Positions 39,001-42,000 of a DNA stretch of 64,000 nt are shown piece by piece. A program made the position numbers. Source of the stretch: Carcharhinus longimanus. Lineage: Eukaryota. Where the stretch lies: NCBI GenBank assembly GCA_030264375.1, contig JASCQW010000109.1:32586819-32650818 (forward strand), in the 5' to 3' direction. The stretch's first letter is position 1; each line of letters begins with the position of its first letter.

Positions 39001-42000
39001 AGCAGTAAAAGCTTGTCGTGCCATTGAACTCTCTATACCCTTCCTTTAAATCAATAGGTTCCTTAGTCATAGTTTCTCATTTTTAATAAATTATTTAATT
39101 GTGTTAAACTGAAAATGGCAGTTGCACCTGCAACAATTTCGATCAATGAAGAAAAGTTGTATTATAACTACATGTTCTAACACTGGTAGTCTTTCTGCAA
39201 TTAACGAACTGTAGGTCAGGGGTAACCATTAGTTATTGCTACTCGGCTTTTTGGCTAAGATCAAGTGTAGTATGGACATGCTGTACGTGGTTGATGTCAT
39301 AAGATTACATTGTAGCTTCATTTGAAGCAACTTTTTAAAAGCAGCATCTCGGCCTTTTGGCGAAGATGCAAATGAGATCAAGCCTTGGAGAAGGTGCATT
39401 GCCTACTCCAATCAGCTTGGATCATGTGGATCAAGCCCATGACAGGGAGTGAGAGGCCTGTCTTGTCAGCTTGGATCTGGAATGTCTCACTTGCTGACAC
39501 TCTGAACAGGGCTTTGACTGGATTGAATTGGATACATATACAAAAAAAAATTAGTTAAGCACACACTTAATGTGCAGTTCTCAAATGCTTTTCCCTTGCA
39601 TTAGGCTAATGTGAATTCCACTATCATAGTTCATGTGCTATGAACATGTATTGTGTAGTAATAAAATAAATTAATAGAAGAACTTGAATTTATNNNNNNN
39701 NNNNNNNNNNNNNNNNNNNNNNNNNNNNNNNNNNNNNNNNNNNNNNNNNNNNNNNNNNNNNNNNNNNNNNNNNNNNNNNNNNNNNNNNNNNNNAATAAAT
39801 TAATAGAAGAACTTGAATTTATTTAGCACCCTTCAGGACATCATAATGCAATTTGAAGTGTAGTCATGATATTTTGTAGAGAAGTATAGTCATCAAGTTG
39901 CATGTAGCAAGCTGCCACAAATAACAGTGAATTACATGACCTAAAAATCTGTTTTGGTGGCATGATTTGAGAAATGAATATTGACCTGTGCACTGGAAGA
40001 ATTTCATGCAATGTCCCTTTTTTTCCCAATGTCTCATTTATCTAAGAAGGTGGATGGACTTGAACAATGGTGTCACCAAACTGGTTTATGTTTGGTTTGG
40101 TGTAAGCAGTTGGACCTGTTTTTGCCAAAACTATGGCTTTTTCTTATTTCTCACTCATTGCATAAGTATACGCTAACACTCGATCACCTTGTTGAAATGA
40201 GCATTGGTTTGCTCTCACTTCTCATCTATCAACTTGAGATTGTTGTTATGCTCTAATAGCCTCTGAAATTTCTAGAAGTAATAACAAATCAAACATGGTT
40301 TTCAACTTTGGATGGTCACATGAGTAGTTGCTTCAAGGATTGTATGAATCTTTCAGCTAATCCATTGATTGGTGGATGATCTGGTGCAAATTATATATGC
40401 TGAATACTATTTACTTTGAGATAATTCTCAAACACTTGTGAAGGGCGGCATGGCCGCACAGTGGTTAGCACTGCTGCCTTATAGCTCCAGGGACCCGAGT
40501 TCGATTCCAACCTTGGATGAGTGTCTGTGTGGAGTTTGCACATTCTCCCAATGTCTGCTTCGGTTTCTTCTGGGTGATTCAGTTTCCTCCCACTATCCAA
40601 AGATGTACAGATTAGGTGGATTGGGCACGCTAAATTGCACCTTGGTGTCCCAAAATGTGTAAGTTAGAGACATTAGTGGCATAAATACGTGAGGTTATAA
40701 GGAAAGAGTTTGTGTAGGATGGTCTTTTAGAGAGTCGGTGCAGACTTAATGGGCTGAATGGCCTTCTTCTGCACTTTAGGGATCCTGTGATTTTATGTAA
40801 ACAATGAACCATATTCACGAAAAAGCTTGCAATTTACCAAATCTTGCAATAATTTAATCAAGCTTTTCAACGGTTTGCTCATTTGTAATGGATCACATGA
40901 TGGCACTTTGAATATGACTAAGAACATGTAATTCTCAAAAGATGTGAAGGAGACAAGGGAGGTGTACTTCTTATTTTTGCATAGGATTGATACTGTTCCA
41001 TGTTTTCTTCAATCTGAGCATCCAGATCTNNNNNNNNNNNNNNNNNNNNNNNNNNNNNNNNNNNNNNNNNNNNNNNNNNNNNNNNNNNNNNNNNNNNNNN
41101 NNNNNNNNNNNNNNNNNNNNNNNNNNNNNNNNNNNNNNNNNNNNNNNNNNNNNNNNNNNNNNNNNNNNNNNNNNNNNNNNNNNNNNNNNNNNNNNNATTT
41201 CAAATCAGGATGCGTACGATACGTTCCATCTGTCATTCCTTTCAATACAATATCCATCATCTTCCCCATCACAGGATTATTTCTGGTATGTCTCTGATCA
41301 TGATATGCTGTACAGACAAATGATCTAGCAGCGAAAAACAAAGAATATTCACAGTTGGTGGCTCAATAGATAAAGATAATGCAACAGCATTAACATGGGA
41401 CTCTGACTGACAATATCTTCTATTGTAGGAGTGTGCAGATAAGATCAGTAACCATTTTTGCAATCGGCCAGCAGCTAACAATGTTATGCCTTGATACGGC
41501 ACAAAAATAGTAAAGGGTCGATGATCAGTCAGTAATGTGGAATGTCGACCATATAAATAATGATGAAACGTTTGTATGCCAAAAAGTATACTCAATACTT
41601 CTTCTAGCTCAGAATATTTAGATTCAGGACTCGTCAGAGAACATGAAGCAAAAGCAAAAGGTTGTTCTCCTGAAGTGATAATATGTGAAACTACTATCCC
41701 TACTCCATAAGGTGAAGTGCCACAAGCAAGCAGGAAGATAACTTCGGATTAAAATGAACCAATACTTCAGGTGCTGCAAAGCATCTTTAACATCCTTGTA
41801 TGATTTCTCATATTCTGTTGTCTAGTCCCATACACGCATAGTTACAATATTGAAGGCATTGCATAATTTGTGAAGTTAGGAACAAATTTGTCATAATAAT
41901 TTATTGATCCTAGACATTTGTCAGACACAGTTCTTCTCAAGTACTTCCCTCTTTGTACATGCTTTATGCAGGCCTTTACCATCAATAATATGACCCAACT

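What the first reader, a model, noticed from the sequence alone, without database searches (positions are those of the whole stretch)
39228..39556. U2 snRNA-headed, poly(A)-tailed, TSD-flanked element: candidate new snRNA-derived SINE in sharks
Seen in the sequence: the insertion starts exactly at U2 nt 1 and follows U2 for 39 nt (36/39), stopping just after the branch-point recognition sequence GTAGTA. It continues with ~270 nt of mostly non-U2 body and an A9 tail, bracketed by ATTAGTT direct repeats. Established: poly(A) plus TSD marks L1/Tx1-type retrotransposition, snRNA-headed SINEs (SINEU) are described from crocodilians, and the Keno (Tx1) and Utopia retrotransposons target U2 genes at about this position. 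Inference: this is a copy of a SINE family with a U2 head, perhaps a non-autonomous derivative of a U2-targeting element. I know of no such family in chondrichthyans, but I cannot search.
Basis: partly seen in the sequence, partly recalled or inferred. Interest (0 to 1): 0.85.

Follow-up and report, generated by a model that had tools for sequence, protein, structure and literature searches.

The report
U2-headed poly(A) retroposon copy in shark
A 315-base insertion in a shark genome begins with the first 38-39 bases of U2 spliceosomal RNA, ends in a poly(A) tail and sits between short target duplications, so it looks like the snRNA-headed retroposons known so far only from crocodilians, but whether it belongs to a repeated family could not be tested.

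Summary
Window 39235-39549 (+) starts at U2 nt 1 and follows U2 for 39 nt (36 of 39). It ends in A8-9 and is flanked by ATTAGTT on both sides; a repeat that long arose in 25 of 20000 random placements. Rfam's U2 model is the best sub-threshold match in the window (40.1 bits, cut-off 46).

Two points are new:
- The "non-U2 body" holds a second, older U2 5' piece (39345-39374, about U2 nt 4-33; 0 of 5000 shuffles align as well).
- Head 1 ends at the site where the Keno and Utopia retrotransposons insert into U2 genes (between nt 38 and 39, per two papers).

The element has no tRNA, 7SL or 5S module, contains T5 runs, has no poly(A) signal hexamer and no meaningful ORF. My best reading is a copy of a SINEU-like, Tx1/L1-type-mobilised retroposon lineage. 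Its U2 leader would come from read-through of an interrupted U2 gene, or from template switching.

The decisive question is whether this is a family or a one-off chimera. It stayed untested because no eukaryotic nucleotide collection, Repbase or Dfam was available, and the window holds only this one copy.

The parts
39228..39234 (+). 5' target-site duplication ATTAGTT
   Evidence: Identical to 39550-39556 (D5). A repeat of >=7 nt occurred in 25 of 20000 random placements.
39235..39273 (+). Head 1: U2 snRNA nt 1-39 (stem-loop I plus the branch-point recognition sequence GTAGTA). The last T may be U2 nt 39 or the first base of the body.
   Evidence: Rfam U2 model positions 1-39, 36 of 39 identical. 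It ends at the Keno/Utopia insertion site between nt 38 and 39 (PMC4640811; PMC6136364). C14>T creates a T5 run at 39248-39252.
39274..39341 (+). 68-nt spacer of unknown origin. It contains a small hairpin, a T5 run (39332-39336) and an A4 run (39337-39340).
   Evidence: No Rfam family except a spurious MicC hit at E 6.5. A 16-nt stretch resembles U2 nt 22-36, but not significantly (p 0.09, 2000 shuffles). Inverted repeat I1. T and A runs.
39342..39374 (+). Head 2: an older, internal U2 5' piece (about U2 nt 4-33, from 39345). It folds into an extended stem-loop I.
   Evidence: Core 39347-39366 equals U2 model positions 7-26, 18 of 20 identical. Head 1 aligns to 39348-39374 with 23 of 26 identical plus one gap, 0 of 5000 shuffles as good. 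MAFFT alignment A1. Hairpin -15.8 kcal/mol, z -5.4, 0 of 200 shuffles.
39376..39423 (+). Hairpin H1. The Rfam model aligns it to U2 stem-loop IV, but that likeness is not independently significant.
   Evidence: -21.2 kcal/mol, z -3.4, 1 of 200 shuffles as stable. Aligned to stem-loop IV in the global U2 alignment but not found when head 1 is left out.
39429..39477 (+). Hairpin H2. It has the same 9-nt 5' base and 12-nt 3' base as H1 but a different interior.
   Evidence: Direct repeats D4 (9 nt, 100%) and D3 (12 nt, 100%) at spacings of 53 and 54 nt. Fold -19.8 kcal/mol, z -1.6, 13 of 200 shuffles.
39478..39541 (+). 3' region of unknown origin, running up to the tail.
   Evidence: No similarity elsewhere in the window. 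None of 13 poly(A)-signal hexamers tested lies in it; the single match in the element (TTTAAA, 39334) is in the spacer.
39542..39549 (+). Poly(A) tail, A8 (A9 if base 39550 is counted)
39550..39556 (+). 3' target-site duplication ATTAGTT

Best explanation
Window 39235-39549 is one retroposed copy of a short, non-coding, composite RNA. Its first 38-39 bases are the 5' end of U2 snRNA, and it carries an older U2 5' fragment inside.

Shown: it entered this site as one unit, with a target-site duplication and a poly(A) tail. That is the signature of target-primed reverse transcription by a poly(A)-using LINE.

Inferred:
- The mobiliser was a Tx1-clade element. This is the L1-like group reported in cartilaginous fishes, and it is also the group that mobilises crocodilian SINEU.
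- The element belongs to a SINEU-like lineage of snRNA-headed retroposons that acquired U2 leaders at least twice.
- Because head 1 ends at the nt 38/39 site where Keno and Utopia elements interrupt U2 genes, the leader most likely arose when a U2 gene carrying such an insert was transcribed from the U2 promoter through nt 1-38 into the insert. Transcription would then be by RNA polymerase II from an external snRNA promoter, not by polymerase III. Template switching of the reverse transcriptase onto U2 snRNA is the alternative route.
For: - U2 head: 36 of 39 identical over model positions 1-39; E 1.5e-6 locally and 1.4e-4 window-wide.
- Target-site duplication of 7-8 nt: matched in 25 of 20000 random placements. 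A8-9 tail.
- Second U2 piece: 18 of 20 identical to model positions 7-26; 0 of 5000 shuffles align as well.
- The junction coincides with the Keno/Utopia site (PMC4640811 passages; PMC6136364 passages).
- Not a polymerase III SINE: 0 tRNA genes; no 7SL, 5S or other small-RNA family at E<=10; T5 runs at 39248-39252 and 39332-39336. Kojima reports the same for SINEU (PMC4494074, Discussion).
- SINEU parallels, from PMC4494074 Results and Discussion: poly(A) tails, short U2 heads, recurrent 5' addition of U1 or U2 sequence, some Tx1 LINE families carrying the same U2 head, internal partial duplications.
- Tx1 L1-like repeats are reported in whale shark and Callorhinchus, while full L1 is absent (PMC8455134 passage).
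- Against an mRNA 3' end: none of 13 poly(A)-signal hexamers lies in the last 200 nt.
- The RNA folds into a chain of hairpins: -97.1 kcal/mol, z -2.55, 2 of 100 shuffles as stable.
Against: - Only one copy is seen. Neither blastn nor nhmmer finds any other piece of the body in the 64 kb. An unrelated SINE-like repeat matches eight other places in the same window. No eukaryotic genome, Repbase or Dfam could be searched, so family status is an inference, not a result.
- The two heads do not differ clearly in divergence from U2: 3 of 39 mismatches against 3 mismatches plus one gap over about 30 nt. A single event with several template switches is therefore not excluded.
- A 68-nt spacer separates the heads. 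Simple repeated read-through would place them side by side.
- The last head base (T, 39273) could be U2 nt 39, so the junction is 38 or 39.
- Keno's 5' junction and its target-site duplication length were not seen in any text I read.
- No Tx1 or Keno coding fragment was recognised in the window. Only 8 of the 86 ORFs of >=90 aa were scanned against Pfam.
- The flanks are not a recognisable repeated target.
Confidence: 0.5

Rival explanations
1. A one-off chimeric retrocopy. During a single reverse-transcription event the LINE enzyme switched templates from the 5' end of some poly(A) RNA onto U2 snRNA, possibly more than once. This produced a unique U2-X fusion that never propagated.
For: Such U1 and U2 chimeras with L1, Alu or processed-pseudogene fragments, and U1 or U2 copies with poly(A) and target-site duplications, are documented in human (summarised in PMC4494074, Discussion). 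Only one copy is present in the window. The two U2 pieces have similar divergence from U2.
Against: - A template switch has no reason to land at nt 38/39, the Keno/Utopia site. By my estimate that is about a 1-in-100 coincidence over a 190-nt RNA.
- Two U2 pieces separated by 68 nt would need at least three switches in one event.
- The tail region has no poly(A)-signal hexamer, so it is not a typical mRNA end.
Confidence: 0.3
2. An internally deleted, dead-on-arrival copy of an autonomous U2-targeting Tx1 (Keno-type) LINE. It would consist of a co-transcribed U2 leader plus LINE 5' UTR and 3' UTR. That makes it a LINE remnant rather than a SINE.
For: The head ends at the Keno site. At least one crocodilian Tx1 family carries a U2 head at its own 5' end (PMC4494074). 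Tx1 repeats exist in cartilaginous fishes. The element has a poly(A) tail.
Against: The element has no ORF remnant: its longest ORFs are 57-60 aa with no true relatives. No LINE sharing its 3' end lies in the window.
Confidence: 0.12
3. A diverged U2 gene, variant snRNA gene or ordinary full-length U2 retropseudogene.
For: Rfam aligns 39235-39427 end to end to the U2 model (positions 1-192). A hairpin falls on stem-loop IV, with a loop resembling its consensus.
Against: - The score is below gathering (40.1 against 46).
- Almost all of the score comes from nt 1-39. Without head 1, only the 20-nt second piece is found.
- Model positions 40-46 are deleted and most of the stem-loop II region is not aligned base for base. 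The stretch placed on the Sm-site region shows almost no identity.
- A 92%-identical head next to an unrecognisable remainder does not fit uniform decay of a full-length pseudogene.
- The poly(A) tail and target-site duplication lie 120 nt beyond the modelled end.
Confidence: 0.03

Closest known systems
SINEU (SINEU-1, -2, -3) of crocodilians (Kojima 2015, PMC4494074; Results and Discussion read)
   Same: - A short non-coding retroposon whose 5' end is a U2 (or U1) snRNA fragment.
- A poly(A) tail, and target-site duplications of about 10 bp when they are visible.
- More than one snRNA-derived piece in series, as in SINEU-1F, C and H, which arose by 5' addition of U2 sequence.
- Internal partial duplications.
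- Oligo-T runs that argue against polymerase III transcription.
- No known promoter inside the element.
   Different: - The host is a shark. Kojima states that no SINEU was detected outside crocodilians.
- Copy number is unknown here, against about 7,700, 1,600 and 1,058 copies in crocodilians.
- No preferred repeated target is seen, whereas crocodilian SINEU prefers Mariner-N4_AMi.
- Here the head ends at nt 38/39. SINEU-3's 5' piece is 32 bp.
Keno (Tx1 clade) and Utopia (restriction-like endonuclease) non-LTR retrotransposons that insert into U2 snRNA genes
   Same: The break in U2 sequence lies at the same place, with nt 1-38 upstream and nt 39 onward downstream (PMC4640811; PMC6136364).
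   Different: This is not an insertion into a U2 gene: no U2 nt 39-188 follows the tail, and the whole unit, head included, is bracketed by a non-U2 target-site duplication. It also has no reverse-transcriptase ORF.
snRNA-LINE, snRNA-Alu and snRNA-mRNA chimeric retrocopies made by template switching (Buzdin 2002 and Garcia-Perez 2007, as summarised in PMC4494074; originals not read)
   Same: An snRNA 5' part is fused to another RNA's 3' part, with a poly(A) tail and target-site duplications, made by the LINE machinery.
   Different: Those are independent single events with variable junctions. This element has two U2 pieces, and its junction falls on a known endonuclease target site.
Classical polymerase III SINEs of sharks (tRNA-derived families; names recalled, not tested)
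   Same: Short, non-autonomous and LINE-dependent.
   Different: This element has no tRNA, 7SL or 5S head. It has a poly(A) tail rather than a LINE-specific 3' tail. It contains T5 runs.

Membership tests
SINEU (snRNA-headed retroposons) | The 5' region is derived from the U1 or U2 snRNA gene | tested here: met
   Rfam U2 model positions 1-39, 36 of 39 identical, E 1.5e-6. A second piece covers positions 7-26, 18 of 20 identical.
SINEU (snRNA-headed retroposons) | 3' poly(A) tail; short (<500 bp); non-coding | tested here: met
   A8-9 tail and a length of 315 nt. ORFs are <=60 aa, with no real relatives.
SINEU (snRNA-headed retroposons) | A repeated family: many copies sharing the same structure at different sites | not testable with these tools
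   Only 1 copy lies in the 64-kb window. No eukaryotic nucleotide collection, Repbase or Dfam was available.
SINEU (snRNA-headed retroposons) | Sequence similarity of the body to the SINEU-1, -2 or -3 consensus | not testable with these tools
   Consensus sequences are not in the text I read. Supplements are closed.
SINEU (snRNA-headed retroposons) | Mobilised by Tx1-clade LINEs (shared target preference, or a shared head or tail) | not testable with these tools
   The flanks are unique in the window. No Tx1 sequence was to hand. A paper passage reports Tx1 repeats in whale shark and Callorhinchus.
Polymerase III SINE (SINE1/7SL, SINE2/tRNA, SINE3/5S) | A head with an internal polymerase III promoter derived from tRNA, 7SL or 5S RNA | tested here: not met
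   ARAGORN found 0 genes. Rfam at E<=10 gives only U2 and spurious hits. T5 runs lie inside the element.
U2 spliceosomal RNA gene (RF00004) | Reaches the Rfam gathering score and has stem-loop II, an Sm site and stem-loops III/IV | tested here: not met
   40.1 bits against a cut-off of 46. Model positions 40-46 are deleted and most of the stem-loop II region is not aligned base for base. Without head 1, only a 20-nt piece matches.
Keno/Utopia insertion in a U2 gene | U2 nt 39 onward directly downstream of the element; a reverse-transcriptase ORF | tested here: not met
   The sequence downstream of the tail is the target-site duplication followed by unique sequence. The sub-threshold Rfam scans of 39000-39680 and 39275-39556 found no U2 match there. 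The element has no long ORF.
Template-switch snRNA chimeric retrocopy | An snRNA 5' part plus an unrelated RNA's 3' part, with poly(A) and target-site duplication, arising as a single event (single copy) | tested here: inconclusive
   The structural features are met. Whether it is single-copy is not testable. The junction at nt 38/39 and the second U2 piece argue weakly against this.

The most novel reading that the evidence does not exclude
Sharks carry a family of U2-headed, poly(A)-tailed retroposons, which would be the first SINEU-type elements outside crocodilians. Their leader ends at the Keno/Utopia cleavage site. That would show that snRNA-headed SINEs are born by read-through from U2 genes interrupted by a U2-targeting LINE. 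It would also show that they are driven by the external polymerase II snRNA promoter, which is the question Kojima left open about how SINEU is transcribed. The paired hairpins with identical basal stems would be the recognition structure for the partner Tx1 reverse transcriptase.
Probability: 0.3. Interest if true: 0.65.

Novelty: new member of a known kind. Interest (0 to 1): 0.45.

Why it matters
SINEU is the only SINE class whose head lacks an internal promoter. Its origin and mode of transcription are unresolved, and it has been reported from one reptile order only.

A shark family whose U2 head stops at the target site of U2-specific LINEs would do two things:
- It would extend the class by more than 400 million years of divergence (divergence time recalled, not from a call).
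- It would give a concrete, testable birth mechanism: co-transcription with an interrupted U2 gene.

If the element is instead single-copy, it is an ordinary chimeric retrocopy. It would then matter mainly as evidence of recent poly(A)-dependent (Tx1/L1-type) retrotransposition in a shark genome.

Tried and rejected
- **More copies in the window.** blastn (word size 7, +1/-1) found only the self-hit and the head 1/head 2 pair; the other hits had E>=0.15. nhmmer found only the self-hit.
- **Copies through predicted proteins.** The 60-aa ORF 39376-39555 (+) found no candidate in the 5.8-billion-protein set, searched only at 33-105 aa. The 57-aa ORF 39232-39402 (-) gave 2 hits at E<=0.001 among 1.84 billion representatives. 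The one I inspected (P0031, 768 aa) is a repetitive microbial-type protein matching through a short motif, so it is a chance hit. P0030 (4003 aa, no matched stretch listed) was not inspected. This route says nothing either way about copy number.
- **Other small-RNA modules.** Rfam at E<=10 gave only spurious snoR20a, STnc410 and MicC hits at E 5-6.5. ARAGORN found nothing.
- **Further U2-like pieces.** Candidates in the spacer (p 0.09) and in the 3' body (p 0.20 with head 1, p 0.03 with head 2; 2000 shuffles each) were not accepted as real. The stem-loop IV likeness of hairpin H1 appears only in the forced global alignment, not in local mode.
- **A repeated target around the insertion.** The flanks 38400-39227 and 39557-39693 are unique in the window.
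- **Literature.** Six full-text searches were run. Four asked about snRNA-headed SINEs in sharks or outside crocodilians and found no such report: 'SINEU'+'shark', 'snRNA-derived'/'U2-derived'/'SINEs'/'cartilaginous'/'Tx1', 'U2 snRNA'+'SINE'+'shark' and 'SINEU'+'crocodilians' from 2016. Searches found the SINEU, Utopia and Keno papers. The library lacks most subscription journals, and Repbase Reports and Dfam entries are not papers.
- **Not attempted.** I did not search papers for a typed stretch of the element, judging the yield too low. The bacterial promoter/terminator scan is not applicable to this sequence.
- **Could not be checked.** The genome collection holds only bacteria and archaea. 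Supplementary figures of PMC4494074 and PMC4640811, which carry the head alignments and junction tables, are closed.
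Full report
**1. What is in the sequence.**

Reading 38900-39900 and slicing by coordinate gives the following layout.

| Coordinates | Feature |
|---|---|
| 39228-39234 | ATTAGTT (5' direct repeat) |
| 39235-39273 | 39 nt that follow U2 snRNA from its first base |
| 39274-39541 | 268 nt of body |
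| 39542-39550 | Run of nine A; the last A is also the first base of the 3' repeat |
| 39550-39556 | ATTAGTT (3' direct repeat) |

- Rfam's U2 model (RF00004) aligns 39235-39273 to model positions 1-39 with 36 of 39 identical bases. The mismatches are at positions 3, 7 and 14.
- The full hit is 39235-39427 at 40.1 bits, below the family's gathering score of 46. It is therefore absent at gathering threshold (0 matches).
- The E-value is 1.5e-6 in the 681-nt search and 1.4e-4 over the whole window, where it is the best of only 2 matches at E<=0.1.
- A flanking direct repeat of 7 nt or more, allowing 2 nt of slack, occurred in 25 of 20000 random placements of a 315-nt interval in this window.
- The repeat can be read as 8 nt because the element's first base and the base after the 3' repeat are both A. 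The start is therefore U2 nt 1 or 2.

**2.

- *A second U2 piece.* The body is not all unrelated to U2. 39347-39366 matches U2 model positions 7-26 (stem-loop I) with 18 of 20 identical. That is 13.1 bits, with E 1.8 when all 4227 families are counted.
- Using head 1 as a stand-in for U2, a local alignment pairs its nt 8-33 with 39348-39374 (23 of 26 identical plus one gap). None of 5000 shuffles of the target reached this score. Searches show the same pair.
- By MAFFT the likeness begins at about U2 nt 4. Past nt 33 it can be carried to about nt 39 only by assuming two one-base deletions, which I do not count as shown.
- *Overall order.* The element reads: head 1 (U2 1-39), a 68-nt spacer, head 2 (U2 about 4-33), about 165 nt of body, then the tail.
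- *Two hairpins.* The body after head 2 contains hairpins at 39376-39423 and 39429-39477. They share an identical 9-nt 5' base and 12-nt 3' base but have different interiors (D3 and D4; folds).
- The whole RNA folds at -97.1 kcal/mol, z -2.55, with 2 of 100 shuffles as stable.
- Rfam's global alignment places the first hairpin on U2 stem-loop IV. When head 1 is left out this is not recovered, so I treat it as a likeness only.
- Other candidate U2-like bits, in the spacer and in the body, were not significant (p 0.09, 0.20 and 0.03 from 2000 shuffles each).

**3. What it is not.**

- *Not a U2 gene or an ordinary full-length U2 pseudogene.* The score is below the cut-off. In the model alignment, positions 40-46 are deleted and most of the stem-loop II region is not aligned base for base. 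The stretch placed on the Sm-site region shows almost no identity. A 92%-identical head next to an unrecognisable remainder does not fit uniform decay.
- *Not a tRNA-, 7SL- or 5S-headed SINE.* ARAGORN finds nothing in 38800-39690. Rfam at E<=10 lists only U2 and spurious bacterial or snoRNA matches.
- *Unlikely to be a polymerase III transcript.* T5 runs at 39248-39252 and 39332-39336, and a T4 run at 39355-39358, argue against polymerase III transcribing the whole unit.
- *Not a Keno or Utopia insertion in a U2 gene.* What follows the tail is the target-site duplication and then unique sequence, not U2 nt 39 onward. The duplication brackets head and body together.
- *Not a typical mRNA 3' end.* Of 13 poly(A)-signal hexamers tested, the only match in the element (TTTAAA, 39334) lies in the spacer, about 200 nt from the tail.
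- *Not coding.* The longest ORFs are 57-60 aa.

**4. The junction.**

- Kojima and Jurka 2015 (PMC4640811, passages) state that U2 sequence downstream of Utopia insertions starts at nucleotide 39. They state that nt 1-38 is expected upstream, and that Keno (Tx1 clade) has identical 3' flanking U2 sequence.
- A second paper (PMC6136364, passages) gives Keno's 3' target as the U2 stretch beginning TCTGTTC. In the Rfam consensus printed, that stretch begins at position 39.
- Head 1 ends ...GTAGTA (nt 38), followed by a T that may be nt 39 or the first base of the body.
- By my estimate, a reverse transcriptase jumping at random onto a 190-nt RNA would land within one base of this site about once in a hundred times.

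**5. Most likely mechanism.**

- *Shown.* Head, body and tail integrated together by a mechanism that leaves a poly(A) tail and a short target duplication. That mechanism is target-primed reverse transcription by a poly(A)-using LINE.
- *Inferred: the mobiliser.* It was probably a Tx1-clade LINE. A whale-shark genome paper (PMC8455134, passage) reports no full L1 in that genome. It cites L1 as present only as small fragments in Chondrichthyes, and reports Tx1 L1-like repeats in whale shark and Callorhinchus. In crocodilians, Tx1-Mar elements are thought to mobilise SINEU, and one Tx1 family carries a U2 head itself (PMC4494074, Results).
- *Inferred: origin of the leader.* It probably arose by transcription from a U2 promoter through nt 1-38 into an element sitting at the Keno/Utopia site. 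The alternative is template switching onto U2 snRNA, which Kojima favours for the 5' additions in SINEU.
- *Inferred: a propagating lineage.* The second internal head suggests the lineage went through at least two rounds of head capture. That would make it a propagating retroposon rather than a single accident. This is not proved, because the two heads do not differ clearly in divergence from U2, and a multi-switch single event remains possible.
- *Unexplained.* The 68-nt spacer between the heads is not accounted for by simple repeated read-through. It ends in T5 followed by A4, which could be the remnant of a linker between two monomers. That is speculation.

**6. Family or one-off.**

- This is the decisive point, and I could not test it.
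- The window holds one copy only. An unrelated SINE-like repeat of about 150 nt matches eight other places in the same 64 kb at 74-80% identity.
Repbase and Dfam are not available.
- An attempt to detect copies through predicted proteins gave nothing usable.
- My split is 0.5 for a SINEU-like propagating element, 0.3 for a one-off template-switch chimera, 0.12 for a deleted copy of a U2-targeting Tx1 LINE, and 0.03 for a U2 gene or pseudogene variant.

**7. Comparison with what is known.**

- The closest kind is SINEU (Kojima 2015, PMC4494074; abstract, Results and Discussion read).
- Shared features are a U2-derived 5' end, a poly(A) tail, serial snRNA pieces, internal partial duplications, oligo-T runs and no internal promoter.
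- That paper says no SINEU was found outside crocodilians.
- A 2017 review (PMC5381603, passages), a 2016 mollusc SINE paper (PMC4758252, passages) and a 2018 Repbase overview (PMC5753468, passages) mention SINEU without naming another host.
- Four full-text searches found no report of snRNA-headed SINEs in cartilaginous fishes. Repbase Reports, Dfam and most subscription journals are outside that library.
- Membership in SINEU as a structural class is met for the features I could test. The defining feature "repeated family" and similarity to the crocodilian consensus sequences could not be tested.

**8. Host and context.**

- One exon of an LRRC52-like gene (2476-3204, minus strand) was searched on its own.
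- Its best match is Scyliorhinus torazame at 81% identity. The other five of the top six named hits are sharks at 70-75%. The next five are sawfish, rays and skates (60-65%), followed by chimaera at 53%.
- The window is therefore from a shark, not from a human. The species was not determined.
- The insertion lies about 36 kb from that exon, in sequence that is unique within the window.

**9. Verdict.**

Its core claim, a family, remains unproved.
- If it is a family, it is a new member of the SINEU kind in a distant lineage, with a useful clue to how such elements arise. If it is single-copy, it is an ordinary chimeric retrocopy.
- Interest is 0.45.

Noticed in passing
window 2476-3204 (-): A coding exon of an LRRC52-like gene (signal peptide, LRRNT and LRR repeats; Pfam LRR_8 at 3.8e-25). 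The best match is Scyliorhinus torazame at 81% identity. The top six named hits are sharks and the next five are sawfish, rays and skates. Only this single exon was searched.
   Followed up: partly
window 40443-40600, 54181-54338, 46058-46207, 26203-26352, 44235-44391, 2334-2472, 5045-5188, 50066-50219, 4190-4238: An abundant SINE-like repeat of about 150 nt. The copy at 40443-40600 matches eight other places in the window at 74-80% identity, on both strands. It is unrelated to the U2-headed element. The family was not identified.
   Followed up: no
window 39665-39693 and 39794-39822, either side of the N run 39694-39793: The same 29 nt lies immediately before and after the run of N (100% identity), 140 nt downstream of the element. 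It looks like an unmerged overlap at an assembly join. The N run was left as it is.
   Followed up: no
window 32689-32838 (+): A near-perfect 150-nt hairpin: -97.7 kcal/mol, z -15, 0 of 200 shuffles as stable. Rfam lists it far below threshold as MIR868 (38.3 bits against 200). It is probably a foldback or MITE-like inverted repeat.
   Followed up: partly
window 41269-41748 (-): An ORF fragment with an RT_RNaseH domain (4.3e-19), probably a remnant of an LTR retrotransposon. It lies beside the N run 41030-41196.
   Followed up: no
window 35080-35361 (-); 13762-14184 (-): Two weak Pfam matches, both below the curated cut-offs: DDE_Tnp_4 (19.5 bits against 24.8; a Harbinger-type transposase remnant?) and eIF-5_eIF-2B (20.6 bits against 27).
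   Followed up: no
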